Shown one piece after another: positions 1 to 16,394 of a stretch of 64,000 nucleotides of DNA (positions within the stretch are counted from its first letter, which is position 1; each line of letters begins with the position of its first letter). A program made the translations under genes and the position numbers. Origin of the DNA: Candidatus Aminicenantes bacterium (GTDB lineage: Bacteria; Acidobacteriota; Aminicenantia; Aminicenantales; UBA4085); NCBI GenBank assembly GCA_026393895.1, contig JAPKZG010000013.1, positions 14,556 to 78,555 on the forward strand, in the 5' to 3' direction. The notes beneath the pieces were generated by a model, which was not told the origin of the DNA, ran no database searches, and saw only the letters and a program-made list of their open reading frames with translations.

Positions 1-2148
1 CTGGGCCACCGCCTCTCTCTTCGCCTTCTTCTCTTCTTCTTTGGTCGCCGTGTATTGGACTTTGACCTTATACCCCTTAACCCGTTCTTCCCTTGTCATT
101 TCCGCGGCCGCATCCTCCTCAAGGAACGACAGCAGATCTTCTGGCTGGAAAAAGAAAATCTTGGACTGATCGGATTCGGATGTACTTTGGAATACCAAGA
201 CCTTAATGCTCTCAAGCATCTTTTTATCCGGGGAACAGAGAACCACTGTCTCATACCCTGCGGCGAGGCACTTCTGAACATTCTTCAATTCTTGCTCATC
301 GGACGATGAAATTGAGATTTCGCAGGCTATCTTTCTTCCATTCCGCTCAAGGCTGACATCGACTCGACCTGATCCGTCAAGAACGGGAAGCTCGATTGTC
401 GCCTTGTAACCCTTATCCTCCGCGATCTTCTTTATAAGATTCTGAAGGTAACGATGCTGAGAAATCGCTTTATCCTTTGCAGGCGGTGTCTCCACTTTGG
501 GCGGGACTACGACCGCTTCAACGTCAATTACCCTTCCTCCGGCCGGTAATTCTGCTTTCGGCACAGGCTTTGCTGGTGCTCGTTCTTTTCTGTAAAGCGT
601 CTCTTTTTGATACGGCCTGGCTTCCCTTTGAATCTCCGCTTCTCTCGCTGCACATTCAGCCTCAAGCTTTCCCCGCTCCACAAGATATTTCCGGCCAAAA
701 GGAATACCTTTGAACCATCTATCGAACTGTTCTTCAGTCTGCCCAAGTATCTCCGTAAATACTTCTTGGGCCGTTTCAATATAGGCAGTTTGAATCGGGA
801 TAACCCCGCCTTCGATCTTGTGCTTCACATAGCAAATTCTCGGCTCTAACGTCTGAAGCTCTTTCGTATGTTGCTCCCATTCTTCTCCCAGACTCCAATA
901 TCGAGGCTTAAACCCACTGACGTTCTTCACTTCAAAACCCGAATATTCGAAAGCTTCTTTGGCGAGAATCGAAGCGTCGTGCCGATTGAGCCGAAAATAG
1001 ACTTGAATTCCAGCATTCCCCAAGATCAAACTCCTCAATTCTTCGGGAATTTGGGCGAGCGTCTGATGAGCCATGATTAAGCTAAGGCCATATTTTCTCG
1101 CCTCAGATAAAACGACAGAGAACGATTCGCTGGCAAAGTTCTGAAATTCGTCAATATATAGATAAAACGGTAAACGCTTGGTTTGGGGAAGATCCGATCT
1201 TGAAAAAGCGGCCATCTGGATCTGGGCCATAAGCAGCGATCCAAGAAGATCAGCCGAGTCTTTCAACTTTCCCTTATCGAGTTTGATCAAGAGGATTTTT
1301 CGAGAATCCATGATCTCTCTGAGATTGAAAGAGCTTTTTGCGGATGAAAAAATATGCCTGATTCTCTCATCTGAGAAAAAGGCATTGATTTTATTCATCA
1401 CCGGCTCGATCCAGGTAATCTGGCTCCTGTCGGTTATGGTATCGAATCTTCGGAAATACTCTCTCGCTAAAGGATGACTGACTTTCTCCAAGATGCCCTG
1501 CCGAACGGCCCGATTGCTCAAGAATGCCGGTAGTTCGATTAAGGTCAATCCGGCCTCTCCCAAAGCAATCAATGAATTCCGCATCAGGTCTTCCATCCTC
1601 ACGCCCCAGGAGTCGGACCAGATTTTTCGGAAAGCGCAGATAAGTTCATTTGCCTGTTCCGCAAGAGGGACGCCAGGCATTTTTTCCAAAGGATTGAAGG
1701 TCACCGTGAAAATCGGATCAGTAGGATCAATGAGAATGACCTTGTCGGTTAATTCTGGCTCATCCGGGCTGAATTGCAGGATCAATAATCCTTTGACATC
1801 CTCGATCAAGTCCCCGTGCGGATCAATGACCCCGAAGCCGTTTCCTTTCTCGATATCTTGCTGAATCAGGTATTCTAGAAATTTTGTCTTGCCCGTTCCG
1901 GTAGCCCCGACAACGTAGAAATGCGTTGCTCTGTCTTTTTCTGAGATTTTAGCCAGCTGATAATCTTCTTTGTTCTCGGAATAATACCAGCCGAGATTGA
2001 GAGTATTGTCGGATACCTTATCGGATTTGCCTTCTTCCTGATTTATGAATTCTTCGTCATTGGATTTTATCTCTGTTTTTTCTTCGGGCGAAGCAGACTC
2101 ATTGGGATCTTCAAAAAGCTTTATTCTCTTTCTTTTAAATATACTCAT
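1..2148 (-). CDS. VirD4/TraG/TraD-like P-loop NTPase (coupling-protein family) with C-terminal PD-(D/E)xK-like (DUF4143/DUF234-like) domain; partial, 3' end beyond window start
   Basis: Manual translation of minus strand from ATG at 2148 gives uninterrupted ORF to window edge; Walker A 'GATGTGKT', Walker B 'YIDEFQNF'; paralogous to 13517..14836 product; C-terminal 'GRVDVSLERNGRKIACEIS' restriction-endonuclease-like fold signature; not in ORF track because no stop in window. Confidence 0.6.
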   Translation of the reverse strand, partial: MSIFKRKRIKLFEDPNESASPEEKTEIKSNDEEFINQEEGKSDKVSDNTLNLGWYYSENKEDYQLAKISEKDRATHFYVVGATGTGKTKFLEYLIQQDIEKGNGFGVIDPHGDLIEDVKGLLILQFSPDEPELTDKVILIDPTDPIFTVTFNPLEKMPGVPLAEQANELICAFRKIWSDSWGVRMEDLMRNSLIALGEAGLTLIELPAFLSNRAVRQGILEKVSHPLAREYFRRFDTITDRSQITWIEPVMNKINAFFSDERIRHIFSSAKSSFNLREIMDSRKILLIKLDKGKLKDSADLLGSLLMAQIQMAAFSRSDLPQTKRLPFYLYIDEFQNFASESFSVVLSEARKYGLSLIMAHQTLAQIPEELRSLILGNAGIQVYFRLNRHDASILAKEAFEYSGFEVKNVSGFKPRYWSLGEEWEQHTKELQTLEPRICYVKHKIEGGVIPIQTAYIETAQEVFTEILGQTEEQFDRWFKGIPFGRKYLVERGKLEAECAAREAEIQREARPYQKETLYRKERAPAKPVPKAELPAGGRVIDVEAVVVPPKVETPPAKDKAISQHRYLQNLIKKIAEDKGYKATIELPVLDGSGRVDVSLERNGRKIACEISISSSDEQELKNVQKCLAAGYETVVLCSPDKKMLESIKVLVFQSTSESDQSKIFFFQPEDLLSFLEEDAAAEMTREERVKGYKVKVQYTATKEEEKKAKREAVAQ

Positions 2149-2188
2149 TCGCCTGATTATATTCTACACAAAGAAAAAAGGAATTTTT

Positions 2189-2818
2189 TTAAGAAATTCC
2201 CAAAAAGCCTTTTGTCCTTCGATCGATTTTTGATGTATCCAATCCCTTTCCTGACATCATTTGTTCTACTGCTTCAATCATACATTGATGAACGCAGGTT
2301 ACGTAGGCCGTTAAATCCTGCTGATTAAATAGATTCAGATCGTCAAGGCCAACTGCTTTCCTTGTCCCTGGAAAAAGCGAAGCGATTGTCTGCCATACGT
2401 CCGGCATATATGTAAGATACCAAGAAACAAAAAGGGCATCGCCATAGTCATTTGCACACAGGTATGCTTTATAACAGCCCAGTTTAAGGTTTCGTCTATC
2501 AGCAACGACTAAAAAGGCTCTTGTTTCGCCTATTGCAGAAGAAGCAAAAGTTGGCCCTACCATAACTTCGTTCATTTCGATTGATGGAGCTTTAGATATT
2601 TCAATCAACTCTTTTGTTTTTGATATGACCTGATCTCTATTTCCTTTTGCTCCTCGAATTAAAGCTGACCAATTATCAAGGACTTCGGCTTTTCGTTCTG
2701 CGATGAGAATCAATATGCCGATCGCGGCAAACGTGAGCACTATAACGCTGGCCTTAATAGAAACGATTAAAAGCAGAATTCCTACGATTAAAAGCAAAAG
2801 AACGATTGGTTTTTTCAT
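2189..2818 (-). CDS. hypothetical membrane protein (two N-terminal TM helices)
   Basis: ORF 209 aa; hydrophobic N-terminus 'LLLLIVGILLLIVSIKASVIVLTFAAIGILILIA'; operonic with downstream ATPase gene (stop 2189, next start 2148). Confidence 0.45.
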   Translation of the reverse strand: MKKPIVLLLLIVGILLLIVSIKASVIVLTFAAIGILILIAERKAEVLDNWSALIRGAKGNRDQVISKTKELIEISKAPSIEMNEVMVGPTFASSAIGETRAFLVVADRRNLKLGCYKAYLCANDYGDALFVSWYLTYMPDVWQTIASLFPGTRKAVGLDDLNLFNQQDLTAYVTCVHQCMIEAVEQMMSGKGLDTSKIDRRTKGFLGIS

Positions 2819-2864
2819 ATTTCCCTCCTAAAATACCTTTATTTTATATATATTTATGATTATA

Positions 2865-3359
2865 TCAAGAATTTTTCTTCCGAGAGCAAGATGCAGCCAG
2901 GGCTACGGCTTCGATCATCCGCAGATGATATGCGTTTTTATGCGATTTCTCTTTATTTAACTCATGTATAAGGGCTGGATATTCCAAAATAATCCTCTCG
3001 GCCAGATTTCGCTTATTCGCCTTCCCATCCACTATAAAGAATTTCTCAAGCTCTTTGATGGAATGACTTTGAACCTTGATCCGCTTCTTCTTCCCCAATA
3101 CTTTTATTCTTGAAAATAAGAGTTCTAGATTCTTAGACGATCTCGAAGGATGGAGCCTTTTAATCGCCATTGCGCTTATGTCATAAAGCTCGATCTGTTC
3201 CCAAATGATATCGAGAATTCGATCCGCCTTTTCTTTTGTCCATTTTCCCGTAATAGTTTTCACTCGCCATTCCAAAAGATTGGAGCCGTCGAATATCGCA
3301 AGCCCGAGATACCGGGTGCCTGGATTGATTCCCAATATTCTATTATGTTCTCTGGTCAT
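2865..3359 (-). CDS. RuvC-like Holliday-junction resolvase family protein
   Basis: N-terminal 'ILGINPGTRYLGLAIFDG' matches RuvC/YqgF catalytic motif 'ILGIDPG.R.TG.A'; 164 aa typical size. Confidence 0.5.
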   Translation of the reverse strand: MTREHNRILGINPGTRYLGLAIFDGSNLLEWRVKTITGKWTKEKADRILDIIWEQIELYDISAMAIKRLHPSRSSKNLELLFSRIKVLGKKKRIKVQSHSIKELEKFFIVDGKANKRNLAERIILEYPALIHELNKEKSHKNAYHLRMIEAVALAASCSRKKNS

Positions 3360-3801
3360 AGCGTTTTAGCAGTTGTCGCAAAGGTTTTAAATTATTAAAA
3401 CCGTCCGTTCTGTTATTCTTGTTAATTAATTTTATTTCTTTATTATTGTTTGTGTGATCCTGCGTCACATACCTTGTGATCCGTCCGTCACATAGTTTGT
3501 GATTTAAAATCACATCTGGCTTCAAAAGAAAATATAGGCAGCGTCCATTAAGCCGTTTTTCTGCTAACAACTTGACTTTACGGTTGACTGTCTCCCGGCA
3601 GAGCCCGATTCGATCTGCTATCGTCTTTTGAGACGGAAAACACGTTTGGCTCTTGGAATTCGCATAAGAGGCCAAGACATTATAGACCGCAAGCCCGGTC
3701 GGCTTTAGAATATTGCCATATTGTTTCAAAATAGATTGGCTGATCCAATACCAATTCTTGTCATCTATTCGTCGAATATGATTTTGGGACTTGTGAATCA
3801 T
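3343..3801 (-). CDS. winged-helix/HTH DNA-binding protein (replication-initiator/DnaD-like N-terminal HTH); 3' end of ORF reads through a repeat array and may be over-called
   Basis: 'LAVYNVLASYAN...CFPSQKTIADRIGLCRETVNRKVKLL' classic wHTH; low-complexity Asn/Lys tail encoded by AT-rich repeat region 3441-3506. Confidence 0.45.
   Translation of the reverse strand: MIHKSQNHIRRIDDKNWYWISQSILKQYGNILKPTGLAVYNVLASYANSKSQTCFPSQKTIADRIGLCRETVNRKVKLLAEKRLNGRCLYFLLKPDVILNHKLCDGRITRYVTQDHTNNNKEIKLINKNNRTDGFNNLKPLRQLLKRYDQRT
3441..3506. repeat. array of GTCACATA-N2-TTGTGAT imperfect palindromes / TGTGAT half-sites (operator- or iteron-like)
   Basis: Read directly: tgtgtgatcc tgcGTCACATACCTTGTGATccgtccGTCACATAGTTTGTGATttaaaATCACAtc. 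Confidence 0.6.
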
Positions 3802-3953
3802 ATCTTCAATAATACTTCTTTCCTCAAACGTGCTCGCAGATGATTTGAGCGACGAGACAAAGATTCCGCCTCATTTCATTTATAGATTTACGAGACAGAC
3901 CCTGCATTTTAAGAATGCGGCGATATTTTTCATATATGTCGGGTCGTTTTCTT

Positions 3954-4232
3954 CTAGGCATGCTTTCGTCTCAGATATTCTTCCCTTTCTATTATCTTTC
4001 TCTTAATCATCCGGATAAGAGGAAAAAACAAAGCATCCACCAATACACTGTATATGCCTGACAATTTAATCACGTTAGTCAGGCTCGGCAGGCAAATGCC
4101 TTTTTCCCAGCGGGAGATCATTCCCGCACTCTTAAGATTCAGGATTTCCGCGACTTCCTTCTGCTTCAATCCGATAGCTTTTCTATATCTCCTTAGATTA
4201 TTCGGAATCTTTTTTATCTCGACCTTTTTCAT
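3954..4232 (-). CDS. XRE-family (Cro/CI-type) HTH transcriptional regulator
   Basis: 'LRRYRKAIGLKQKEVAEILNLKSAGMISRWEKG' canonical XRE HTH; 92 aa. Confidence 0.8.
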   Translation of the reverse strand: MKKVEIKKIPNNLRRYRKAIGLKQKEVAEILNLKSAGMISRWEKGICLPSLTNVIKLSGIYSVLVDALFFPLIRMIKRKIIEREEYLRRKHA

Positions 4233-4300
4233 ATGCTCTTGAATTAAGAATGATGTCTTTTCAGCTTAGGTCGAATGAAAATACAAAACAAGACGTAAAA

Positions 4301-4320
4301 AATTGCTTAAAAAGGCAATT
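4301..4320. promoter_or_regulatory. AATTGC-N8-GCAATT palindrome in divergent promoter region (candidate XRE operator)
   Basis: aattgcttaaaaaggcaatt read in sequence between divergent genes 3954..4232(-) and 4424..(+). Confidence 0.35.
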
Positions 4321-4423
4321 TTAGAGGATGTCTATGTAGAAATTGGGGATAAATCCATTTATTTATCGGATTACGCATTTTTTCCTGTCTTATATTCGAT
4401 TTATTCCTGCGTTATTCTGACTA

Positions 4424-4612
4424 ATGATGATTCTAAGCAAACGAGTAATTGAGGAATTTAAAGAGATCTACTATCGGGAATATGGAAAGAAAATCTCCGA
4501 CGAGGAAGCTCAAGAGATGGGACAAAATCTCCTTACTTTTTTTAAGATTATCTATCGGCCGATACCCGAAGATAAAAATAAGGAAAACAAAAGCCTCTCG
4601 GAATCCTCATAA
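4424..4612 (+). CDS. small hypothetical protein (62 aa)
   Basis: ORF divergent from XRE regulator, upstream of serine recombinase; no recognisable motif. Confidence 0.25.
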   Translation: MMILSKRVIEEFKEIYYREYGKKISDEEAQEMGQNLLTFFKIIYRPIPEDKNKENKSLSESS

Positions 4613-4665
4613 TTTCGGGCGCTTTTTTTTGACAATATTAATCTTCGCGCTACAATTAAATTAAT

Positions 4666-4687: not shown

Positions 4688-4750
4688 GGGAATCTTTATC
4701 AAAAAGGTCTCTTTGAGACCCATTAACGGGTTCCCATGCCTTAATATCTT

Positions 4751-6520
4751 ATGCTTCGCTATTTCATCTACTGCCGAAAATCTACAGAAGCCGAAGACCG
4801 ACAGGTCCTTTCGCTTGAATCTCAAATAAACGAACTAAAACGACTCTCCGAGAGATTAAATCTCTCCGTTATTGACATCCTTATTGAATCTCGGTCAGCA
4901 AAGTCGCCAGGCCGACCGCATTTTAACGAAATGCTAAAACGAATTAGTCAGAAGAAGGCCGATGGGATTATCTGTTGGAAACTGGATCGCTTGGCAAGAA
5001 ATCCTATTGACGGAGGCCAGATCAGTTGGATGCTCCAAAAGGGGATTATTAAACATATCCAGACCTTCGATAGAGCCTACTTTCCTGAAGACAATGTCCT
5101 ATTGATGAATGTCGAGTTCGGAATGGCAAACCAATTTATCTTGGATTTGGGAAAGAACGTTAAAAGAGGGCTTAAAACGAAAGCTGAAAAGGGTTGGCTT
5201 CCAACGCTTGCGCCTCTTGGTTATTTAAATGAAAAAACAAGGGAAAAAGGAAAAAAAGAAATTCTTAAAGATCCCGAAAGATTTTCTCTAATAAAAAGGA
5301 TGTGGGACATGATGCTCACAGGAAATTACACCCCGCCAAAGATCGCTTATATAGCAAATAACGACTGGGGATACAAAACTCGGCAAGGAAAGCCATTGGT
5401 AAAAAGCACCATCTACCGGCTCTTTTCCAATCCTTTTTATTCGGGCTGGTTTGAATACCCGAAAGGAAGTGGCAACTGGTTAAAGGGAAGCCACGAACCG
5501 ATGATTACTCAAAAGGAATACGATAAAGTTCAAATACTTCTGGGTAAAAATGGCAAGCCTAGACTCAAAAAACACGAATTTGCGTTTACTGGTCTTATTC
5601 GATGCGGAGAGTGCGGAGCCACGGTCACGGCAGAAGAAAAAAACCAAATCATCTGCTCGAAGTGCAAATACAAATTCTCTTTAAATAACAGATACGAATG
5701 TCCAAAGTGTGCTACTCCTATTGAGATAATGAAGAAACCCACTATCCTCAATTATGTCTATTATCATTGCACAAAGAAAATAATGCCAGATTGCTCCCAG
5801 GGATATATAGAAGTAAATGAACTCGAAAAACAGATTGATTTTTATCTATCAAACATCCATATCTCGGAAGGATTTAAAAATTGGGCTATAAATAATCTAA
5901 AAGAAGAAAACGAGAAAGAAGCTTATTCAAGAGAATCAATCTTTGCTTCTCAAAGAAAAGCTTATGACAACTGCCTTAAGAAACTCGATAATCTTTTCCA
6001 ATTGAAAATCTCTCCTGCAAATACTGATGGGAGTCTTCTATCAGACGAAGAATACGGAAAACAAAAAATCGGATTTTTAAGAGAGAAAACCCGACTTGAA
6101 GAAATTATAAATGATAAAAGCGGCGGTATCGAGAAGTGGCTCCAAAAAGGAGAAAGAACTTTCAACTTCGCACTCAATGCTCGATATTGGTTTGAAAATG
6201 GGACACTCTTGGAGAAGTTTAAGATTTTAAAAGCTCTTGGCTCGAACCTGATTTTAAAAGACAAAAAACTTCATATTGATCTTAAAATACCTTTCACGGC
6301 TATAGGAACGGTCGTGAAGGAGGTTCCTACGGCCAGGTACGGGTTCGAACCTGAAAAATCAGACCAAAATGAAGCTAAACAAAACGATCTCTACTCCAAT
6401 ATTCCCATCGTGCTCCGCGCAATGAAGAAAGTTCGAACTTGGATCATCAGAAATGCTGATGCTTATGACGTTCCTGATTTGGAAAAGCCAACCGAGGATG
6501 CGCTTCCAATCCCCTTCTGA
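4751..6520 (+). CDS. large serine recombinase (resolvase/invertase catalytic domain + recombinase domain + zinc-ribbon)
   Basis: N-terminal 'YCRKSTEAEDRQVLSLESQ' (catalytic Ser region), 'DGIICWKLDRLARN'; Cys-rich zinc ribbon 'CGECGAT...CSKC...CPKC...YYHC'; 589 aa. Confidence 0.85.
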   Translation: MLRYFIYCRKSTEAEDRQVLSLESQINELKRLSERLNLSVIDILIESRSAKSPGRPHFNEMLKRISQKKADGIICWKLDRLARNPIDGGQISWMLQKGIIKHIQTFDRAYFPEDNVLLMNVEFGMANQFILDLGKNVKRGLKTKAEKGWLPTLAPLGYLNEKTREKGKKEILKDPERFSLIKRMWDMMLTGNYTPPKIAYIANNDWGYKTRQGKPLVKSTIYRLFSNPFYSGWFEYPKGSGNWLKGSHEPMITQKEYDKVQILLGKNGKPRLKKHEFAFTGLIRCGECGATVTAEEKNQIICSKCKYKFSLNNRYECPKCATPIEIMKKPTILNYVYYHCTKKIMPDCSQGYIEVNELEKQIDFYLSNIHISEGFKNWAINNLKEENEKEAYSRESIFASQRKAYDNCLKKLDNLFQLKISPANTDGSLLSDEEYGKQKIGFLREKTRLEEIINDKSGGIEKWLQKGERTFNFALNARYWFENGTLLEKFKILKALGSNLILKDKKLHIDLKIPFTAIGTVVKEVPTARYGFEPEKSDQNEAKQNDLYSNIPIVLRAMKKVRTWIIRNADAYDVPDLEKPTEDALPIPF

Positions 6521-11443: not shown

Positions 11444-11487
11444 TTATTTAAAATTATTTAAAATATATTAATTATGTATTAATTATA

Positions 11488-11531: not shown

Positions 11532-11999
11532 TTAATCCTTTCTGAGTTCGTCTTCTCCTACAACGAACTTAGCCATTTTGCCAGACATCCAGGTGTTGTC
11601 AGAAGCGTCTAATTCAATTTCGGGGTAACCTTCATAGCAGGCAAAAACCAGTTCTGCAATTGTATTTTCGGAATCAACCTTGAAATCCCTGACACAAAAG
11701 AAATATGTGCTATTGTCGCAATACATACTTCTTTGAGAGATCCATTCTTCGCTTCCAATCTGAACAAATTGAGAAGTTTGTTCGATCCCTTTTGATTCGC
11801 TTAATAGCGTCCCGCCCCTACTGGTCATATCCGGGCAGGTCGAACATGTTATCGTAAAAATTCTTACGTAACGAAATTTTACGATTCTGGTGGGATAAAT
11901 GTCGGGCCCTTCCGTCAGATTACAACCGATACTGAAAATCATCCATCCTAGCGTCACACCCATCAACATCATTGAAAAAATCTTTTTCACCTGAATCAC
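11532..11999 (-). CDS. putative lipoprotein (signal peptide + lipobox 'FSIGC')
   Basis: N-terminal hydrophobic segment ending in Cys; 155 aa, Cys-rich. Confidence 0.45.
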   Translation of the reverse strand: MIQVKKIFSMMLMGVTLGWMIFSIGCNLTEGPDIYPTRIVKFRYVRIFTITCSTCPDMTSRGGTLLSESKGIEQTSQFVQIGSEEWISQRSMYCDNSTYFFCVRDFKVDSENTIAELVFACYEGYPEIELDASDNTWMSGKMAKFVVGEDELRKD

Positions 12000-12210
12000 C
12001 TCCTTTCTTTTTTTATTTTATTGTCCTGCTAATTCTGGTCGCAATAGCAAGACAGATTTTTGACCGCGCTTGCGGATCAATATGTAAAGTACATCATCAA
12101 TGAAATACACCGCTTCTCTGCATCCCTAATGATATTAGTATAGCACCTAATTTTATTCTAGTCAAGGAGTTAGAGCGTTTTTTCAATTTCAAATTGATTT
12201 ATTTTAGAGA

Positions 12211-12245
12211 AAAAGGAAGCAGATTTCTGCTTCCTTGTTTTGTTT
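12211..12245. terminator. bidirectional rho-independent terminator (GGAAGCAGA-TTT-TCTGCTTCC + T-runs)
   Basis: Perfect 9-bp stem read in sequence, 15-45 nt downstream of stop of 12256..13044 gene. Confidence 0.6.
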
Positions 12246-12255
12246 AAAAAAAGAG

Positions 12256-13044
12256 CTAATTCCCTTTCCACGTTTTGCAGTTCTCTCGGTACTCACAGTC
12301 CTTACACATGAAACTGGTTCTCGGGAAAAAGACGCGCTGCTGGATTCCTTTGAGAATCTGTCCGGCCAGGAGGTAGAGCCGTTGGTAGTCGTCTTTGTCT
12401 CGCATTGTATCCATCGTGATCAGCTTAGGCTTCTTGGATTTGACGAAATTAACGATCTTTAAAGACTTAGCCGGCTTGTGGCTGATCCTTTCGAAAGCAT
12501 AGCTGTAGATTGTCAGTTGGAGATGGTTTTCGACTTCCTGAGGGTCCATGGTCTGGGCCGAGGTCTTGAATTCCGTGATCGAGTCATCCTCCTCGATTAG
12601 ATCAATCACCCCTTCCAGCTCGATGGCGGCGCTATGGCCGTTCTCGGAATTGAAGAGCGGGACAGAAAACGGAATTTCCGTACCCTTGACTTTCTTTTTC
12701 GGAAGCTCGAAATACTGAGCCAGCATCTCCTTTCCCAGGACGACAAGCTTCATCTCTTCTTCCCCGGCTTTGAAGCGAATCTCATTTTCCGTTTTCAGAC
12801 TGTACCAGTCCGCATCGAAAATCTTATGCAGGCGGTCGATCGTCACTCCGTTTCCGTTCATCATCTGCTTGTGATACCAGGAGAGAGCAGAATGGATCGC
12901 GCTGCCAAAAGCCAGTCCTGAAGATTTGAAGCGTTTCGGGATCTCATCAATGTACTGGAACTTGTACTTCAGACCGCAAAGCAGATAAAGATTGATTTGA
13001 GAGCTAGAAAGGTATGGCGTCATGGCTTTCGCCTTTGGCTTCAT
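12256..13044 (-). CDS. PD-(D/E)xK nuclease, Cas4/RecB-like with C-terminal Cys cluster
   Basis: 'IDLIEEDDSITEFKTSAQ' (D...ExK), N-terminal Cys and C-terminal 'CKDCEYRENC' (Cas4-like Fe-S ligands); 262 aa (start may be Met8 at ~13023). Confidence 0.6.
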   Translation of the reverse strand: MKPKAKAMTPYLSSSQINLYLLCGLKYKFQYIDEIPKRFKSSGLAFGSAIHSALSWYHKQMMNGNGVTIDRLHKIFDADWYSLKTENEIRFKAGEEEMKLVVLGKEMLAQYFELPKKKVKGTEIPFSVPLFNSENGHSAAIELEGVIDLIEEDDSITEFKTSAQTMDPQEVENHLQLTIYSYAFERISHKPAKSLKIVNFVKSKKPKLITMDTMRDKDDYQRLYLLAGQILKGIQQRVFFPRTSFMCKDCEYRENCKTWKGN

Positions 13045-13378
13045 CGAGAAGCCGTTCGATCATCCGCGAAGCTTCAAGCTTCGTGACCTCTTTCAGAGAA
13101 TCGACCTGGAAAAGCTCTTTGAGTTTGGCGTATCCTTGGTCGTTCTCGTAGCCTTTCTCAGCCATAATCCTGAAGAGATACCGCTTCTGGGCGTCAGTCA
13201 TCGGAGGATTCTCTTTTGACGGGCTGCTGTTTTGGGGCTTGGCCTGGCCAGCGTCCGGCTTCGGGCTTTCTTTTGCCTTCGGTTGATCCTCTAAGGCTAT
13301 CTCTTCGTAGAGATAGAGAACGAGGATAACCTTTCCGTCCACAGTTCTGACTTCCATCCGTCGTGCCTTGTCTTTCAT
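13004..13378 (-). CDS. hypothetical protein
   Basis: 124-aa ORF co-oriented with nuclease gene; no motif recognised. Confidence 0.35.
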   Translation of the reverse strand: MKDKARRMEVRTVDGKVILVLYLYEEIALEDQPKAKESPKPDAGQAKPQNSSPSKENPPMTDAQKRYLFRIMAEKGYENDQGYAKLKELFQVDSLKEVTKLEASRMIERLLDEAKGESHDAIPF

Positions 13379-13516
13379 TTTTTTTCTCCTTTGAATTTTA
13401 AAGATCTACTTTCAGCTTAGCGCACTGATAGAGACAAACAAGACGGGAGAAAATGCTGAAATAGCGAATTATTCCCGTCTTTTATTGGATTTATTGGGGA
13501 CTTATGATGAAGATAT

Positions 13517-14836
13517 ATGGAGAATTCTCAGAAAATTAATCGCATCACTCCGTTTGCCTTAACCGATTACCGCGACATCAGAAAGCTATTCGGCATTAAA
13601 CAAAAGAACCGGCGCGGCCATATGTACATCATCGGTAAGACCGGTACCGGAAAATCTACCTTAATCGAGAATATGGCGATCTCGGATATCAAGAACGGCT
13701 ATGGCGTTGCATTGATCGACCCTCACGGCGACATGGCCGAAGAAATTCTGGATTACATACCCAAGAAAAGAATCAAAGATATCATCTATTTCAATCCCGC
13801 AGATTTGGATAATCCCATAGCGTTCAACCCATTAGAAAAAGTACCAAGAGATTTTCATCATCTAATCGCTTCGGGAATTATCTCGACTTTCAAAAAGATT
13901 TGGTCAGAATCCTGGGGGCCGAGATTGGAGCATATTCTAAGTCACTCGCTTCTTTCGCTTCTCGAATATCCGAATAGCACACTTCTGGATTTGCCAAAAC
14001 TACTTACGAATAACGATTTCCGAAAGAACGTTCTAACTTACATCACTCATCCCCAGGTCAGGGAATTTTGGCTCTCGGAATTCGAGAAATATTCAGCTTG
14101 GCTCAAGTCAGAAGCGATTTCTCCGATTCTCAATAAGATCGGCCAATTCTTAATCAGTATTCCGCTAAGAAATATTGTCGGCCAGAAAGAAAATACTTTT
14201 AATGTTCGGCAGGCAATGGATGAAGGCAAGATCCTCATTGTTAACTTGGCTAAAGGAAAGATCGGAGAAGACAACTGCTCTCTGCTGGGCGCGTTGATTG
14301 TTACTAAGATTCAACTAGCCGCCCTGAGCCGTACGGATCAGCCTGAAGAGCAAAGAAAGCCGTTCTATTTCTATGTGGATGAAATTCACAACTTCATCAC
14401 CTTATCCTTCGCTGACATCTTGTCCGAATCTCGCAAGTACGGATTAAACCTTATTCTCGCCCATCAATATATCGAACAATTGGATGAAAGAATCCGGGCC
14501 GCAATTTTCGGGAATGTCGGGACAATCATTTCCTTCAGGATCGGCGCTGAAGACGCGAAGTATTTAGCCCAGGAATTTTCGCCGGTATTCAATGAAGAAG
14601 ATTTAATCAAGCTCCCGAATTTCCATATCTACCTCAAACTCATGATCGACGGAGTCACCTCGCAGCCTTTCAGCGCAATCACACTTAAACTAAGGGAAAT
14701 GAACACATCGCACAAAAAAGAAATTATCGAGTTTTCAAGGAAGCAATATACAAGGCCGAAAAGTGTTGTAGAACAACAAATGCTTTCTCAGCCATATCAT
14801 CTTCATAATTCAAATGGTCAACAATTATCTTTCTAA
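13517..14836 (+). CDS. VirD4/TraG/TraD-like P-loop NTPase (type IV secretion coupling-protein family)
   Basis: Walker A 'GKTGTGKS', Walker B 'FYVDEIHNF', 'AHQYIEQLD'; paralog of 1..2148 product; 439 aa. Confidence 0.7.
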   Translation: MENSQKINRITPFALTDYRDIRKLFGIKQKNRRGHMYIIGKTGTGKSTLIENMAISDIKNGYGVALIDPHGDMAEEILDYIPKKRIKDIIYFNPADLDNPIAFNPLEKVPRDFHHLIASGIISTFKKIWSESWGPRLEHILSHSLLSLLEYPNSTLLDLPKLLTNNDFRKNVLTYITHPQVREFWLSEFEKYSAWLKSEAISPILNKIGQFLISIPLRNIVGQKENTFNVRQAMDEGKILIVNLAKGKIGEDNCSLLGALIVTKIQLAALSRTDQPEEQRKPFYFYVDEIHNFITLSFADILSESRKYGLNLILAHQYIEQLDERIRAAIFGNVGTIISFRIGAEDAKYLAQEFSPVFNEEDLIKLPNFHIYLKLMIDGVTSQPFSAITLKLREMNTSHKKEIIEFSRKQYTRPKSVVEQQMLSQPYHLHNSNGQQLSF

Positions 14837-15323
14837 AAATAGATCATTTCTTCTGCCCAATGAACAAATTGTCTTCCAAGCCAATCCGCATTGGCTGTTC
14901 CTTCTCGTCTCCATTGGCCAGATATTTCTGTTTTTCTTTTTATACTATTTTTTCGCCTGCCCGTTTTTGGAATTTATAGTAGGTTCTCTCGAGCACTACT
15001 GCTATATCGCTGCTTTGTTTGTTCTTATTTTTATCAGTCTCATCTTTTATCTGGATTGGAAATTTAATCGACTTTATTTAACGAATTTCCGGCTCATAAA
15101 AGAACGTGGCATTATCGGAAAGCGATATATGTCTGTTCGATTACCGAATATTGAAGATATGACCTGTACCTTCGGAATTTTGGGAAGAATCCTGGGCTAT
15201 GGCGATTTAGCAATTGAATCAGCCGGAACCTATGGACAGATGAATTTTAAAGGAATTCCAAAACCGAGAAAAATAAAAACGCTCATTGAAAAATGGCGAT
15301 ATTATTCAGGCGTTGGGCACTAA
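14814..15323 (+). CDS. bacterial PH-domain membrane protein (bPH_2/YdbT/DUF304-like)
   Basis: Two TM helices then 'LYLTNFRLIKERGIIGKRYMSVRLPNIEDM...ILGRILGYGDLAIESAG' matching bPH_2 consensus. Confidence 0.7.
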   Translation: MVNNYLSKNRSFLLPNEQIVFQANPHWLFLLVSIGQIFLFFFLYYFFACPFLEFIVGSLEHYCYIAALFVLIFISLIFYLDWKFNRLYLTNFRLIKERGIIGKRYMSVRLPNIEDMTCTFGILGRILGYGDLAIESAGTYGQMNFKGIPKPRKIKTLIEKWRYYSGVGH

Positions 15324-15377
15324 AGCACCTTAACACTCTTTTATTTATATATATCCTCTCTGCCCCGCTCTTTCTCT

Positions 15378-16394
15378 ATGTTCTTTAACAATCTACCAAT
15401 GGAGGTCCTCATGAAATTAGAAAGTCTGATTCAGGAACTGGAAACCCAGAAGCCCTTGAAATGGGACAAAAAACTGAATTCTTCGCAGATCAAGATGGTT
15501 CTGGACGAAAACAGGCCGAGATTCCAAATTAAGGCCGACAAGCTCTTTCCGATCAATGAATCCTGCCACAACCAGATCGCGGACAAGCTTGAAATCCCCT
15601 TGAAGTACTATCACCGGATGGAGGAAGAAACGCCGGACCTTCTGGCCCGGAACGTGAATACCTGGCTCGAAAGAAGCAAAAAAGATTTCTTCATCCGTGG
15701 CCTGGGAGATTCCATCCGCGCTTTTCTCAGCGATCGCTACCGGGTTATCGACCACTTGGACGTTCTGCTCTGCGCTTTGAATGAACTGCAAGCCCATTCA
15801 GCAGAAATCGAAGACTGCTTCCTTTCCGGGATCGAGATGAATATCAAGGTCAAAAGCCAGAGCCTGAGGGACTTCGTCCGTCACAAGGACGATTTGATCA
15901 CCGGCGGCCTGTTTCTTACCAATTCCGAGACCGGTCATAAAGCCCTTAGGGTTGAACCCCGGCTTTTCCGGGTCAAATGCTCCAACGGCCTGATCGTCGA
16001 GGAACTGGTAACGCGGGAGATCCATATCGGAAACGGTGACGAGCTGGCCGATGAGATGGTTTATCTCTCGCTCCGGCGTTCGATTCGGGAGCTTTTCAAA
16101 GGATTCGGAGGGATCGTTGAGGTTCTACGGGAATCCACAGAAATCAAGGTCAGAAATCCACAGAAAGTCATCAGCAACGTGGCCGATCACTACAAGCTCA
16201 GCGAAATCCAGAAGAACAACATCCTTATGGCCTTCGGAGCGGAGCCGGAATTCGACAAGTACGGGATCGCCAATGCTCTGACGTTCGCGGCCCAGAAAGA
16301 AGAATCCTGGGAAAAGTCCGTGGAAATGGAGCGGATCGGGGGGCGTCTCATCACCCTGCCGGTCGAGGAATTCAAGGCCCTGGATGAGCCGTAG
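15378..16394 (+). CDS. conserved hypothetical protein of plasmid/phage type (DUF932-like assignment tentative)
   Basis: 338-aa ORF in operon with ATPase and bPH_2 genes; family assignment from memory only. Confidence 0.4.
   Translation: MFFNNLPMEVLMKLESLIQELETQKPLKWDKKLNSSQIKMVLDENRPRFQIKADKLFPINESCHNQIADKLEIPLKYYHRMEEETPDLLARNVNTWLERSKKDFFIRGLGDSIRAFLSDRYRVIDHLDVLLCALNELQAHSAEIEDCFLSGIEMNIKVKSQSLRDFVRHKDDLITGGLFLTNSETGHKALRVEPRLFRVKCSNGLIVEELVTREIHIGNGDELADEMVYLSLRRSIRELFKGFGGIVEVLRESTEIKVRNPQKVISNVADHYKLSEIQKNNILMAFGAEPEFDKYGIANALTFAAQKEESWEKSVEMERIGGRLITLPVEEFKALDEP

What the first reader, a model, noticed from the sequence alone, without database searches (positions are those of the whole stretch)
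1..16394. Two paralogous VirD4/TraG-like ATPases without relaxase or T4SS; one in an operon with bPH_2 and DUF932-like proteins
The island encodes two related coupling-protein-family P-loop ATPases: 1..2148 (minus strand, with an extra PD-(D/E)xK-like C-terminal domain) and 13517..14836. Neither has a recognisable relaxase, VirB4 or pilus gene nearby. The second is translationally coupled to a bacterial-PH-domain membrane protein and a 338-aa plasmid-type hypothetical, a three-gene cassette of unknown function. Such stand-alone FtsK/HerA/VirD4-like ATPases with membrane partners could serve DNA translocation for a mobilisable element or act in defence.
Basis: partly seen in the sequence, partly recalled or inferred. 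Interest (0 to 1): 0.5.

Follow-up and report, generated by a model that had tools for sequence, protein, structure and literature searches.

The report
Twin coupling-type ATPases of a comM-inserted island
The two ATPases are real paralogues and are core genes of a widespread, apparently undescribed mobile island that inserts into the comM gene of very different bacteria and carries DNA-pump-like proteins but no recognisable conjugation apparatus, so how it moves between cells is an open question.

Summary
ORFs 1-2148(-) and 13517-14836(+) are paralogous (41% identity) P-loop ATPases of the TrwB/VirD4 coupling-protein family. Both lack a membrane anchor. No relaxase, VirB4 or pilus gene lies in the island or in relatives' flanks.

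The ATPases are not isolated cassettes. They are backbone genes of a roughly 28-30 kb low-GC integrative element. A large serine recombinase (24785-26287) has inserted it into comM; the right junction is near 26,260.

Relatives occur in hosts whose comM is only 28-48% identical, yet their ATPase1 is 58-70% identical. The conserved backbone has two parts:
- Xre-HTH, HTH_36, RuvC-like, small membrane protein, ATPase1.
- Cas4-like and a 124-aa protein, divergent from ATPase2, bPH_2 membrane protein and DUF932.

Most likely (about 0.5) these are two-partner, coupling-protein-like DNA translocases that process and export the excised element. The nearest described analogues are anchor-less coupling proteins and the phage/Bacillus-plasmid "DNA translocation operons". 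Rivals are intracellular DNA processing or replication, and defence. Function is inferred, not shown.

The parts
1..2148 (-). ATPase1: anchor-less TrwB/VirD4-family ATPase (NBD plus all-alpha domain, about residues 65-400), a middle region, a low-complexity linker and a C-terminal nuclease-fold domain. The last 12 codons lie off the window (full length 728 aa).
   Evidence: It lies next to the comM-distal end of the element in relatives.
1..507 (-). Restriction-endonuclease (PD-(D/E)xK) fold domain of ATPase1, from about residue 548 onward. Invariant residues are E, D and E-x-S, plus a Lys in the following helix.
2189..2818 (-). 209-aa membrane protein. It has an N-terminal hydrophobic hairpin and a conserved C-terminal tail ...SKIDRKSRGFLGIS. 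It lies directly upstream of ATPase1 in 14 of the 15 distinct relatives whose sequence reaches upstream of the gene, so it is the putative membrane partner.
   Evidence: 18 loci. No Pfam, NCBIfam or PHROG hit. Not related to the bPH protein.
2865..3359 (-). RuvC-like (RNase H fold) nuclease, 164 aa. It is duplicated in tandem in some relatives.
   Evidence: Pfam RuvC 21.3 bits against a cut-off of 22.2, so just below. Passes RuvC in L007. Found in 18 loci.
3343..3801 (-). HTH_36 winged-helix protein resembling replication initiators or DnaD. It overlaps the RuvC-like gene by 17 nt. Most relatives carry an extra C-terminal helical domain.
   Evidence: Pfam HTH_36 46.2 bits. PHROG replication-initiator families. 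Homologue lengths.
3954..4232 (-). 92-aa Xre/Cro-type HTH regulator, first gene of the ATPase1 operon.
   Evidence: PHROG repressor families. HTH_3 in L007 and L110. Found in 14 loci.
4286..4320 (.). Shared upstream motif, copy 1: palindrome TTGCY-N6-GGCAA next to CGTCTTGTTT, about 85 nt before the Xre gene start.
   Evidence: (D8). In 14 of 16 relatives the palindrome matches at least 9 of 10 positions, against 0.3% of shuffles.
4751..6520 (+). Second large serine recombinase (589 aa). It occupies a similar internal position in several relatives. Its role is unknown.
   Evidence: Pfam Resolvase, Recombinase and Zn_ribbon_recom. Positions in L037, L042, L043, L044 and L048.
12256..13044 (-). 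Cas4-like PD-(D/E)xK exonuclease (262 aa). It ends at a strong hairpin terminator at 12213-12236.
   Evidence: PDDEXK_1 99.5 bits. PHROG exonuclease. Found in 36 loci. Terminator.
13004..13378 (-). 124-aa protein: an N-terminal beta region, a disordered linker and a C-terminal helical motif (weakly DUF3072-like). It is divergent from ATPase2 and is its most constant neighbour.
   Evidence: below cut-off. Present in 24 of 24 close relatives and in 44 loci overall.
13436..13485 (.). Shared upstream motif, copy 2, in the divergent promoter region: AAACAAGACGGG, a degenerate palindrome, then CCCGTCTTTTAT, about 65 nt before the ATPase2 start.
   Evidence: In 33 of 69 relatives it matches at least 8 of 10 positions at a fixed distance, against 9% of shuffles.
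13517..14836 (+). ATPase2: 439-aa anchor-less TrwB/VirD4-family ATPase, about the size of the TrwB cytoplasmic domain.
   Evidence: The best solved relative is TrwB, 1e9r, E 4e-10. At least 7,998 90%-identity clusters reach E<=1e-10. 7,002 50%-identity clusters reach E<=1e-30.
14814..15323 (+). 169-aa membrane protein with two to three hydrophobic segments and a bacterial PH domain. It overlaps ATPase2 by 23 nt and is the putative membrane partner.
   Evidence: bPH_2 44.1 bits. Hydrophobic segments. Overlap. Present in 19 of 20 close relatives.
15411..16394 (+). DUF932-like protein. It is 327 aa from the ATG with a GGAGG site; the ORF list starts it at 15378.
   Evidence: Present in 14 of 16 close relatives. 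Canonical DUF932 (215 bits) is linked in distant variants.
16501..24653 (.). Variable cargo in this copy: TrlF-family ATPase (16501-19311), a 284-aa ORF, a LexA-like S24 repressor (20463-21071), Vsr-Dcm-REase (21071-23429) and a 299-aa ORF.
   Evidence: Relatives carry different cargo at the same places.
24785..26287 (+). Terminal large serine recombinase (500 aa), the integrase of the element.
   Evidence: Orthologues at 64-83% identity sit in the same terminal position; next to comM in L004, L043 and L085.
26208..27308 (-). 5' part of the host comM (Mg-chelatase/YifB-like) gene, interrupted at about 26,260 after ...AAMNPC. This is the right junction.
   Evidence: GC jumps from 0.41 to 0.605. 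Pfam Mg_chelatase and ChlI on the orthologous fragment in L004.

Best explanation
**What it is.** Both ATPases are core genes of one integrative mobile element of about 28-30 kb. A large serine recombinase has inserted it into comM. It is flanked by the split comM gene and carries variable, mostly defence-type cargo.

**The ATPases.** They are anchor-less members of the TrwB/VirD4 coupling-protein family. Each is encoded next to a small membrane protein: the 209-aa protein for ATPase1 and the bPH_2 protein for ATPase2. The membrane protein probably tethers the ATPase to the membrane, as in two-partner coupling proteins.

**Proposed sequence of events.**
1. A repressor acting on the shared upstream motif is relieved.
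2. The three operons are switched on together.
3. The element excises.
4. Its DNA is cut or nicked by the restriction-endonuclease-fold domain of ATPase1, possibly helped by the HTH_36/RuvC-like and Cas4-like/124-aa proteins.
5. The membrane-tethered hexameric ATPases pump the DNA towards the envelope for transfer to another cell. The route is either a helper element's type IV secretion channel or one still unknown.

**Shown here.**
- Family membership at domain level, and paralogy.
- Lack of a membrane anchor.
- The nuclease fold.
- Backbone conservation, co-occurrence and the insertion site.
- Spread across divergent hosts.
- The shared motif.

**Inferred.** Membrane tethering, co-regulation, nuclease activity, DNA pumping and the transfer route.
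For: **Backbone status.**
- The two ATPase families share the same longest-contig lengths for at least 15 pairs of top hits.
- ORF clustering over more than 100 related loci recovers only the backbone as recurrent: ATPases in 103 loci, the 124-aa protein in 44, Cas4-like in 36, bPH in 28, recombinase in 26, DUF932 in 23, HTH_36, RuvC-like and the 209-aa protein in 18 each. Everything else varies.

**Ends of the element.**
- The right end is the serine recombinase next to the comM 5' fragment, in the window and in L004, L043 and L085.
- The other end is ATPase1, then 0-3 variable genes, then a double-HTH regulator, then the comM 3' fragment, in L007, L008, L009, L012, L013 and L023.
- No T4SS or relaxase Pfam family appears in any annotated flank.

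**Horizontal spread.**
- Host comM fragments are 28-48% identical in pairs where ATPase1 is 58-70% identical.
- Element GC stays at 0.35-0.45 against host flanks of 0.36-0.67.

**Coupling-protein nature.**
- Pfam TrwB_AAD_bind and TraG-D_C pass their cut-offs.
- TrwB is the only solved relative.

**Precedents.**
- Anchor-less T4CPs paired with a membrane protein are a recognised class, for example TraJ/TraI of pIP501 (PMC7431656).
- The phage 0305phi8-36/SPO1 "DNA translocation operon" combines an anchor-less VirD4-like ATPase, a MobC-type relaxase and membrane anchors (PMC3357382). SPO1 gp27.4 is 25% identical to ATPase2, and gp27.3 matches Replic_Relax.
- A Bacillus plasmid places the same ATPase type next to a replication-relaxation protein and Tcp-type transfer genes.

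**Nuclease fold on ATPase1.**. The domain is retained in variants that also add wHTH and excisionase-type HTH_17 domains.

**Shared upstream motif.** It sits at fixed distances in front of the operons.

**Companion genes.** Distant variants carry RadC and canonical DUF932. From general knowledge, not tested here: these families often accompany transferred DNA in plasmids and ICEs.
Against: - No experiment and no direct trace of transfer is available. No excised circle, attP junction or helper element was found.
- Every curated coupling-protein model of NCBIfam is missed by a wide margin, for example SXT_TraD at 54 bits against a cut-off of 366.
- The nuclease domain has E-x-S instead of E-x-K and shows no detectable sequence relation to MobC/Replic_Relax relaxases.
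- Elements that depend on a helper T4SS usually have narrow partner specificity. That sits uneasily with the very broad host spread.
- bPH_2 and DUF932 are lost or replaced once ATPase2 identity falls below about 73%.
- The upstream motif is not enriched within the window itself: 35 matches against 34.5 expected. Its support is comparative only.
- The best PADLOC hit of both ATPases is a defence-system component, mad8, E 1e-15 to 1e-17.
- The DNA left of the window in the source contig could not be read.
Confidence: 0.5

Rival explanations
1. Intracellular DNA processing. The ATPases act as ring translocases or helicases inside the cell, in the manner of HerA-NurA. They would work with the Cas4-like exonuclease, the RuvC-like resolvase and the HTH_36 initiator-like protein. 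Their job would be to replicate, recombine, resolve or segregate the excised element. Transfer between cells would be left entirely to other agents.
For: - DUF87 (HerA central domain) passes its Pfam cut-off in both ATPases.
- The backbone is rich in recombination and replication-type proteins: Cas4-like exonuclease, RuvC-like nuclease (sometimes in tandem), and an HTH_36 protein with PHROG replication-initiator hits.
- ATPase2 is divergently paired with the 124-aa/Cas4-like operon in most relatives.
Against: - The match is to the T4CP-specific all-alpha domain and to TraG-D_C, and the only solved relative is TrwB.
- HerA anti-phage and CedB models are missed by far.
- Dedicated membrane partners are hard to explain for a purely cytoplasmic replication or repair role.
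- Close homologues of this ATPase type in Bacillus plasmids sit in transfer loci.
Confidence: 0.2
2. Defence or exclusion. Each ATPase with its nuclease and membrane partner forms an anti-phage or anti-plasmid system, or an entry-exclusion system, carried by the island like its other defence cargo.
For: - The best PADLOC hits are mad8 (E 1e-15 and 9e-18), DndH and HerA models.
- The island is packed with defence genes: a TrlF/Ppl-like ATPase and a type II restriction-modification system.
- A DUF932 gene was under selection after phage exposure in Variovorax (bioRxiv 10.1101/2025.06.20.660599).
Against: - The genes are invariant backbone while the recognisable defence genes around them vary from copy to copy.
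- They keep fixed positions relative to the element ends and integrase.
- They sit behind a shared operator-like motif together with Xre and replication-type genes. That resembles a repressed life-cycle regulon rather than constitutively expressed defence.
- bPH_2 and DUF932 have no PADLOC hit. The other MADS components were not looked for as a set, but the only methyltransferase on the island is the Dcm of an ordinary Vsr-Dcm-REase module.
Confidence: 0.15
3. Virus or satellite. The ATPases are FtsK/HerA-type genome-packaging motors of an unrecognised membrane-containing virus, or of a phage satellite.
For: - Both ATPases give weak PHROG hits to a family labelled terminase large subunit (phrog_2666, E 1e-10 and 4e-9) and strong hits to phrog_5156.
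- Homologues exist in Bacillus phages G and SPO1.
- The element carries repressor-like regulators.
Against: - Three scans of 2.9 million IMG/VR contigs found no close relative of ATPase1, ATPase2 or the DUF932 protein.
- No capsid, portal, tail or lysis family is among the scanned ORFs or in relatives' annotated flanks.
- Element size is not constrained, because multi-kb cargo blocks come and go.
- In the phages the homologues are non-essential and were interpreted as translocation genes, not packaging genes (PMC3357382).
Confidence: 0.05
4. Ordinary conjugation genes. The relaxase and T4SS lie just left of the window, making this a normal ICE.
For: - The sequence left of position 1 could not be retrieved for the source contig.
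- The source annotation names both proteins [quoted passage not shown].
Against: - In six relatives (ATPase1 59-84% identical by BLASTP) the comM 3' fragment, and hence the element end, starts within 0.2-3.0 kb beyond ATPase1.
- In the 93% identical relative L113, one DUF8370 gene and the terminal double-HTH gene follow ATPase1, with no transfer genes.
- The right end is fixed by the recombinase/comM junction.
Confidence: 0.03

Closest known systems
Type IV coupling proteins of the VirD4/TrwB/TraD/TraG type
   Same: - P-loop NBD with Walker A and B motifs.
- All-alpha domain and TraG-D_C region, detected above the Pfam cut-offs.
- TrwB is the only solved relative, E 4e-10.
- ATPase2 matches the size of the TrwB cytoplasmic domain.
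   Different: - No N-terminal transmembrane domain.
- No neighbouring relaxase or T4SS.
- All curated NCBIfam T4CP models are missed by far.
- ATPase1 carries a nuclease-fold domain.
- Two paralogues occur per element.
Anchor-less T4CPs that work with a separate membrane protein (TraJ/TraI of pIP501; class iii of Llosa and Alkorta as cited in PMC7431656)
   Same: A soluble coupling-type ATPase is encoded next to a small membrane protein. Here this happens twice: the 209-aa protein with ATPase1, and ATPase2 with the bPH_2 protein.
   Different: - Those pairs sit inside complete conjugation operons.
- The partners here (a bPH_2 protein and a family with no database match) were not compared with TraI.
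- The interaction itself is untested.
"DNA translocation operon" of Bacillus phages 0305phi8-36 and SPO1 (orf200-207; gp27.3-27.9), and the matching loci of Bacillus plasmids
   Same: - An anchor-less VirD4-like ATPase of the same broad clade: SPO1 gp27.4 is 25% identical over 88% of ATPase2, and both ATPases hit phrog_5156.
- The ATPase is combined with a DNA-cutting protein and separate membrane-associated proteins, outside a recognisable T4SS in the phages (PMC3357382).
   Different: - There the nuclease is a separate MobC/Replic_Relax protein. Here a nuclease-fold domain is fused to the ATPase and shows no detectable Replic_Relax similarity.
- The phage ATPases carry a roughly 400-aa N-terminal extension.
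- The carrier here is an integrative island, not a lytic phage or plasmid.
Mobilisable plasmid CloDF13 (MobB coupling protein plus MobC relaxase)
   Same: - A non-conjugative element that brings its own coupling-type ATPase (PMC7431656).
- From general knowledge, not tested here: its non-HUH relaxase family has been related to restriction endonucleases.
   Different: - MobB has a roughly 150-residue membrane domain that is essential for mobilisation (PMC7431656).
- No sequence link between MobC-type proteins and the domain here was found.
FtsK-like double-stranded DNA transfer proteins (TraB of Streptomyces plasmids and AICEs; TcpA)
   Same: The idea that one ring ATPase with a DNA-recognition domain can suffice for transfer. 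ATPase1 has extra C-terminal DNA-binding or DNA-cutting domains.
   Different: - Pfam FtsK_SpoIIIE scores (17.5-17.7) are below its cut-off of 24.
- The hosts are not mycelial.
- This comparison rests on general knowledge, not on a test here.
Cassette-chromosome type islands (SCCmec and relatives) and comM-inserted islands such as AbaR
   Same: Site-specific islands with large serine recombinases, variable cargo and no transfer genes of their own (SCC), or the use of comM as the target (AbaR). Both statements are from general knowledge.
   Different: - Unlike SCC, as far as I know, this element has T4CP-like ATPases.
- AbaR inserts by Tn7-like transposition, not by a serine recombinase.
- None of this was compared directly here.
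Defence systems with related ATPases (MADS mad8, DndH, HerA-based systems)
   Same: Partial profile matches: mad8 E 1e-15 and 9e-18, DndH E 4e-9, several HerA models.
   Different: - Only the ATPase core matches.
- The companion genes of those systems were not found beside the ATPases: the neighbouring proteins scanned gave only Cas4, Ppl and type II REase hits.
- NCBIfam anti-phage HerA models are missed by far.

Membership tests
Type IV coupling protein (VirD4/TrwB type) | RecA-like NBD with Walker A and B motifs | tested here: met
   ATPase1 has GATGTGKT and FYLYIDE. ATPase2 has GKTGTGKS and FYFYVDE. Pfam T4SS-DNA_transf and TraG-D_C pass their cut-offs.
Type IV coupling protein (VirD4/TrwB type) | All-alpha domain inserted in the NBD | tested here: met
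   TrwB_AAD_bind scores 40.1 and 61.1 bits against a cut-off of 20.5, covering profile positions 12-287 and 10-311 of 387. The alignment to TrwB spans residues 54-323. This is sequence-level evidence only.
Type IV coupling protein (VirD4/TrwB type) | N-terminal transmembrane domain | tested here: not met
   No 19-residue window reaches hydropathy 1.6 in either ATPase. Walker A begins at residue 40 in ATPase2 and residue 81 in ATPase1.
Type IV coupling protein (VirD4/TrwB type) | Encoded with a relaxase and/or a mating-pair-formation system | tested here: not met
   No such Pfam family appears in the island, in the host side or in relatives' flanks out to the element ends.
Type IV coupling protein (VirD4/TrwB type) | Reaches the curated score of an NCBIfam T4CP model | tested here: not met
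   SXT_TraD 54 bits (cut-off 366), CD1115 VirD4-like 50 and 41 (250), TOL TraD 39 and 32 (648), F-type TraD 19 and 29 (521).
Two-partner (anchor-less) coupling protein | Soluble ATPase plus an adjacent membrane protein that recruits it | tested here: inconclusive
   Adjacency is conserved. The 209-aa protein lies directly upstream of ATPase1 in 14 of the 15 distinct relatives whose sequence reaches upstream of the gene. bPH_2 follows ATPase2 in 19 of 20 close relatives. Both partners have hydrophobic segments. Physical interaction cannot be tested here.
MOB_C / Replic_Relax relaxases (for the ATPase1 C-terminal domain) | Restriction-endonuclease-like catalytic fold | tested here: met
MOB_C / Replic_Relax relaxases (for the ATPase1 C-terminal domain) | Sequence match to the Replic_Relax profile or to a member | tested here: not met
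   No Replic_Relax hit in 13 members scanned at E<=10. hhalign against SPO1 gp27.3 gives probability 0.2%. This is a weak test, because one sequence stood for the family.
MOB_C / Replic_Relax relaxases (for the ATPase1 C-terminal domain) | Site-specific nicking at an origin of transfer | not testable with these tools
   Needs biochemistry.
FtsK/SpoIIIE/TraB translocases | Pfam FtsK_SpoIIIE at gathering score | tested here: not met
   17.7 and 17.5 bits against a cut-off of 24.
HerA helicases | HerA central domain plus membership of curated HerA families | tested here: inconclusive
   DUF87 passes (29.7 and 30.5 against 23.2). NCBIfam HerA_antiphage models score 15-18 bits against cut-offs of 800-850. 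PADLOC HerA hits cover only short stretches.
bPH_2 (bacterial PH domain membrane proteins) | Pfam bPH_2 at gathering score, preceded by transmembrane helices | tested here: met
   44.1 bits against 22, residues 82-157. Hydrophobic segments lie at 28-84.
DUF932 | Pfam DUF932 at gathering score | tested here: met
   Marginal: 23.8 bits against 23, covering only profile positions 6-105 of 227. Most homologues carry a precomputed PF06067 hit, and phrog_1362 gives E 7e-42. This is a divergent subfamily.
Integrative conjugative or mobilisable element (ICE/IME) | Site-specific integrase and defined ends in a host gene | tested here: met
   The serine recombinase abuts the comM 5' fragment. The comM 3' fragment lies at the other end in relatives.
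Integrative conjugative or mobilisable element (ICE/IME) | Relaxase (IME), or relaxase plus T4SS (ICE) | tested here: not met
   None detected by Pfam, NCBIfam or PHROGs. An origin of transfer could not be searched for.
MADS defence system | Multi-gene mad set with a methyltransferase around mad8 | tested here: inconclusive
   Only a partial mad8-like match of the ATPase core was found. The neighbouring proteins scanned gave no mad hits. The other mad components were not searched for as a set. The only methyltransferase on the island belongs to an ordinary Vsr-Dcm-REase module 6 kb away.

The most novel reading that the evidence does not exclude
The element is self-transmissible by a minimal route that does not use a T4SS. 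Two membrane-tethered coupling-type ATPases, one carrying its own nuclease, would be enough to cut and export the excised DNA, or to import it. This would work across the very different cell envelopes of Aminicenantes, Deltaproteobacteria, Actinomycetota, Chloroflexi, Omnitrophota and candidate-phyla bacteria. It would be a new mode of horizontal transfer with an exceptionally broad host range.
Probability: 0.15. Interest if true: 0.9.

Novelty: new variant of a known kind. Interest (0 to 1): 0.62.

Why it matters
Most genomic islands have no known way of moving between cells. This family is abundant. ATPase2 alone has thousands of 90%-identity clusters in public metagenomes, and its wider clade has about 7,000 50%-identity clusters at E<=1e-30.

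The family crosses deep phylogenetic boundaries with little sequence change. It ferries defence and metabolic cargo, and it always interrupts comM, a helicase used in natural transformation.

The only transfer-like genes are two anchor-less coupling-type ATPases with their own membrane partners, one of them carrying a built-in nuclease. If they mobilise the island, there are two possibilities. Either they define a new class of "hitcher" that brings coupling proteins but no canonical relaxase, or they define a new minimal DNA-export route.

Either way they would give a function to a very large, unannotated clade of "T4SS DNA-binding domain" proteins that also occurs in phages and Gram-positive plasmids. 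If they instead turn out to be a defence or replication module, that would still assign a role to this clade.

Tried and rejected
1. **Reading the source contig left of the window.** Exact-product look-ups for ATPase2 and for full-length ATPase1 found nothing on record. Only a 2-kb identical fragment from another run turned up. Relatives were used instead.
2. **Is the 209-aa partner of ATPase1 a cryptic bPH protein?** A profile-profile comparison of the two families gave probability 0.2%. Rejected.
3. **Is the nuclease domain of ATPase1 a MobC/Replic_Relax relaxase?** There was no Pfam hint and no hhalign match to SPO1 gp27.3. Only the fold class can be claimed. The CloDF13 record was too poorly annotated and frameshifted to use.
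4. **Fold of the DUF932-like protein.** The AF2 model was poor: pLDDT 61.9, with residues 153-244 below 50. Foldseek against PDB gave nothing below E 0.29. Sequence search of PDB was also empty. Nothing was learned.
5. **Virus or satellite reading.** Three IMG/VR scans gave no close relative.
6. **Enrichment of the upstream motif inside the window.** The palindrome is not enriched: 35 matches against 34.5 expected. The exact 10-mer occurs twice, but with one mismatch allowed there are 7 matches against 4.4 expected. Only the comparative evidence stands.
7. **A perfect 18-nt inverted repeat (13024-13041 and 24837-24854).** In relatives each copy drifts independently within its coding sequence. 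Treated as coincidence.
8. **Sigma-70 promoter and terminator scan of 12.0-16.6 kb.** Counts did not exceed shuffles by more than about two standard deviations. Only the hairpin after the Cas4-like gene looks convincing.
9. **Literature searches.** Searches for DUF932, comM plus serine recombinase, and the Pfam names found no description of this element.

Full report
**1. What is in the window**

Bases 1 to about 26,260 have 0.34-0.47 G+C. The rest of the window has about 0.60.

The right border is sharp. A 500-aa large serine recombinase (24785-26287, +) abuts the 5' part of a Mg-chelatase/ComM-type gene (26208-27308, -). The ComM reading frame follows the host sequence up to ...AAMNPC and then runs into island DNA. 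Everything to the right is housekeeping: TCA-cycle enzymes, glycosyltransferases, a Ser/Thr kinase.

**2. The two ATPases**

*ATPase1.* The frame 1-2148(-) is open to the window edge. The database copy of the same protein is 728 aa, so 12 codons are missing.

*Family assignment.* ATPase1 and the 439-aa product of 13517-14836(+), ATPase2, both pass the Pfam cut-offs of TrwB_AAD_bind, TraG-D_C and DUF87. ATPase1 also passes T4SS-DNA_transf.

*Paralogy.* They are 41% identical over 338 residues, E 6e-82. Both keep Walker A, Walker B and an AHQ motif.

*Solved relatives.* The only one is the cytoplasmic domain of TrwB, E 4e-10.

*What they lack.*
- Neither has a hydrophobic segment.
- Every curated coupling-protein model of NCBIfam is missed by a large margin.
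- FtsK_SpoIIIE is below its cut-off.

They belong to the coupling-protein superfamily but to none of its described families. The clade is very large. At least 7,998 90%-identity clusters reach E<=1e-10. There are 7,002 50%-identity clusters at E<=1e-30, many with N- or C-terminal extensions.

**3. The extra domain of ATPase1**

The last 170 or so residues are highly conserved. They have invariant E, D and E-x-S, plus a Lys in the next helix.

Activity is not shown.

Variants in other loci keep this domain and add others. L018 and L021 add a winged helix and an excisionase-type HTH_17. L024 adds a roughly 400-aa N-terminal extension.

**4. Neighbours**

- ATPase2 overlaps by 23 nt a 169-aa protein with two to three hydrophobic segments and a bPH_2 domain.
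- After an 87-nt gap comes a DUF932-like protein. It most likely starts at 15411, which has a GGAGG site, and its homologues are 327 aa.
- Divergently from ATPase2 lie a 124-aa protein and a Cas4-like exonuclease. They end at a strong hairpin.
- ATPase1 is preceded by a 209-aa membrane protein with no database match. Upstream of that are a RuvC-like nuclease, an HTH_36 initiator-like protein and an Xre-type regulator.

No relaxase, VirB4, pilin or mating-pore family appears among the 20 island ORFs of at least 110 aa that were scanned; overlapping shadow ORFs and the terminal integrase were not scanned.

**5. Relatives show these are backbone genes of one element**

*Co-occurrence.* The top hits of the two ATPases come from the same contigs. 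At least 15 longest-contig lengths are shared between the two hit lists.

*Neighbourhoods.* In 80 metagenome loci found with ATPase2:

| ATPase2 identity to the window copy | 124-aa gene | Cas4-like | bPH_2 | DUF932 |
|---|---|---|---|---|
| 73% or more | 24/24 | 11/14 | 19/20 | 14/16 |
| 65-73% | 15/25 | 12/23 | 3/26 | 2/20 |

In the genome and contig loci found with ATPase1, the 209-aa protein lies directly upstream in 14 of the 15 distinct relatives whose sequence reaches upstream of the gene.

*Clustering.* Clustering all ORFs of more than 100 loci leaves only the following as recurrent: the ATPases, the 124-aa protein, Cas4-like, bPH_2, recombinases, DUF932, HTH_36, RuvC-like, the 209-aa protein, the Xre protein, TrlF and RadC. 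The rest varies:
- SMC/AAA_23 proteins and restriction-modification genes.
- Radical-SAM plus cyclase genes.
- A complete branched-chain amino-acid ABC transporter.

This cargo sits at a few hot spots.

**6.

In six relatives ATPase1 is 59-84% identical to the window copy by BLASTP. By record title they are Aminicenantales, an unnamed 356-kb contig, "Eubacteriales", Actinomycetota, Deltaproteobacteria and Omnitrophota. In all six, ATPase1 is followed by 0-3 variable genes, a double-HTH_3 gene on the other strand, and then the 3' fragment of comM.

In L004, L043 and L085 the serine recombinase abuts the comM 5' fragment, as in the window.

The element therefore runs from comM to comM, with ATPase1 near one end and the integrase at the other. 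There is no room for a T4SS. None appears in the Pfam-annotated flanks.

The source contig itself could not be read to the left, so this rests on relatives.

Some distant variants use tyrosine recombinases instead. The ATPase modules, not the integrase, are the constant part.

**7. Spread**

Record titles name many phyla, and even Micrarchaeota and Promethearchaeota. MAG labels on short contigs are unreliable.

A label-free test was therefore used. In pairs of loci the interrupted host gene fragment (comM C-terminus) is 28-48% identical, while ATPase1 is 58-70% identical. Element G+C stays at 0.35-0.45 whether the flank is 0.36 or 0.67.

The element has moved among deeply divergent hosts.

**8. 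A shared cis element**

A 35-nt similarity links 4286-4320 (upstream of the Xre gene) to 13436-13470 (between the 124-aa gene and ATPase2).

Across relatives the palindrome TTGCC-N5-7-GGCAA behaves as follows:
- In front of the Xre gene it lies mostly 84-86 nt before the start codon. In 14 of 16 loci it matches at least 9 of 10 positions, against 0.3% of shuffles.
- In front of ATPase2 it lies mostly 64-67 nt before the start codon. In 33 of 69 loci it matches at least 8 of 10 positions, against 9% of shuffles.
- It is flanked by CGTCTTGT-type boxes that face each transcription direction.

Inside the window alone the pattern is not enriched, and the loci are related to one another. The weight therefore lies on two points: the fixed position amid diverged flanks, and the resemblance between non-orthologous promoters of one element.

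The simplest reading is one regulator controlling all three operons. This is an inference.

**9. What it works like**

The literature held here offers two close analogues.

- Anchor-less coupling proteins that act with a separate membrane protein are a recognised class, for example TraJ/TraI of pIP501 (PMC7431656).
- Phages 0305phi8-36 and SPO1 carry a non-essential "DNA translocation operon" (PMC3357382). It combines a transmembrane-less VirD4-like ATPase, a MobC-type relaxase and membrane anchors.

SPO1 gp27.4 is 25% identical to ATPase2 over 88% of its length. gp27.3 matches Replic_Relax. A Bacillus plasmid places the same ATPase type next to a replication-relaxation protein and Tcp-type transfer genes.

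In plasmids, 307 of the 393 records that hold a homologue are typed non-mobilizable.

Here a nuclease-fold domain is fused to one ATPase. No sequence link to Replic_Relax was found.

**10. Weighing the explanations**

*Life-cycle role (favoured).* Four things favour this over cargo defence:
- Backbone status.
- Fixed positions relative to the ends.
- Dedicated membrane partners.
- Coupling-protein-specific domains and an operator-like motif shared with Xre and replication-type genes.

Within that role, DNA processing and export for transfer is the best fit (0.5). A purely intracellular replication, recombination or segregation role is the main rival (0.2).

*Defence or exclusion (0.15).* It is supported by the partial mad8, DndH and HerA matches and by the ATPase-plus-nuclease logic.

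*Virus or satellite (0.05).* IMG/VR lacks close relatives, and no structural genes were found.

*Ordinary ICE genes (0.03).* The ends seen in relatives argue against this.

**11. Novelty and limits**

Five literature searches found no description of this element or of the ATPase-nuclease fusion. The library is incomplete.

The parts belong to known superfamilies. The new elements are the combination, the target site, the dual anchor-less ATPases and the absence of relaxase and T4SS. Hence the rating "new variant of a known kind".

All functional statements are inferences. The DUF932 protein, the 124-aa protein and the 209-aa protein remain without a fold or function.

Noticed in passing
window 26208-27308 and junction near 26,260; L004, L007, L008, L012, L013, L023, L043, L085: The element always splits comM at the same place, after ...AAMNPC in the window, in hosts whose comM is only 28-48% identical. 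ComM is a helicase that promotes branch migration in natural transformation (bioRxiv 10.1101/147660). Insertion may therefore disable transformation in the host. In L090 the recombinase faces the comM 3' fragment instead, suggesting that both orientations occur.
   Followed up: partly
window 16501-19311 (-) and 19522-20376 (-): A 936-aa TrlF-family AAA-like ATPase (NCBIfam 484.8 bits against a cut-off of 350) has a Ppl-like C-terminus (PADLOC E 1e-16). It is followed by a 284-aa Cys-rich ORF with no family. TrlF-like genes recur next to the ATPase2 module in about 10 related loci, on either side of it. This is probably defence cargo.
   Followed up: partly
window 21071-23429: A compact Vsr (very-short-patch repair) plus Dcm C5-methyltransferase pair is followed by a convergent type II restriction enzyme (PADLOC REase_II E 5e-16). 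The same trio occurs in L047.
   Followed up: no
window 20463-21071 (+): A LexA-like repressor (LexA_DNA_bind plus Peptidase_S24) sits inside the island. No homologue was detected in the related loci examined. It might link induction of this copy to DNA damage.
   Followed up: no
window 4751-6520 (+): A second large serine recombinase (589 aa) lies in the interior of the element. Relatives at 40-72% identity occupy a similar position several kb upstream of the Cas4-like gene in L037, L042, L043, L044 and L048. It could be a second integrase, an invertase or a nested element.
   Followed up: partly
window 6685-8592, 8975-11443, 11532-11999 (all -): A cargo block of three genes. The first is a 635-aa protein with a weak PIN-like match and two C-terminal hydrophobic segments. 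The second is an 822-aa secreted Thr/Ser-rich protein with PKD/Ig repeats and an internal 112-nt repeat spaced 321 nt apart (10472-10583 and 10793-10904). The third is a 155-aa ORF with an N-terminal hydrophobic segment.
   Followed up: no
window 13024-13041 and 24837-24854: A perfect 18-nt inverted repeat links the start of the Cas4-like gene and the 5' part of the integrase gene. In relatives each copy drifts on its own (1-3 mismatches). It is probably a coincidence of two coding motifs.
   Followed up: yes
L018 9899-12337, L021 9899-12331, L019, L017; L024 1108-4218: These are architectural variants of ATPase1. One type is 811-813 aa, with an added winged helix and a C-terminal excisionase-type HTH_17 (55 bits), and is followed directly by a tyrosine recombinase. 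The other is a 1,037-aa Bacteroidota form with a roughly 400-aa N-terminal extension that has no Pfam match, resembling the layout of SPO1 gp27.4.
   Followed up: partly
L009 2837-8417, L010, L110 2204-8428; L053, L061: A complete branched-chain amino-acid-type ABC transporter (binding protein, two permeases, two ATPases, plus a short-chain dehydrogenase) is carried as cargo between the RuvC-like gene and the 209-aa gene. It shows that the element also moves metabolic genes.
   Followed up: no
L027 10052-11110 and 17334-18605 (candidate division SR1): Two ATPase2-like genes appear split into three or four pieces under table 11. This is consistent with UGA being read as an amino acid in SR1, so the element family is also present in a recoded lineage.
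   Followed up: no
L009, L019, P0283: Taxon labels look doubtful. The comM fragment of "Eubacteriales" L009 is 75% identical to that of an Aminicenantales MAG. The archaeal labels (Micrarchaeota, Promethearchaeota) sit on contigs of only 8-9 kb. Cross-domain presence should not be claimed from these.
   Followed up: partly
L035, L047, L062, L077 (between the 124-aa gene and ATPase2); L085, L086, L091, L094, L096 (beyond the Cas4-like gene): Some relatives insert a RadC-like JAB protein (131.9 bits) next to ATPase2. Distant ones carry a canonical DUF932 protein (215 bits) in the Cas4-like operon. From general knowledge, not tested here: both families are typical companions of transferred DNA in plasmids and ICEs.
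   Followed up: partly
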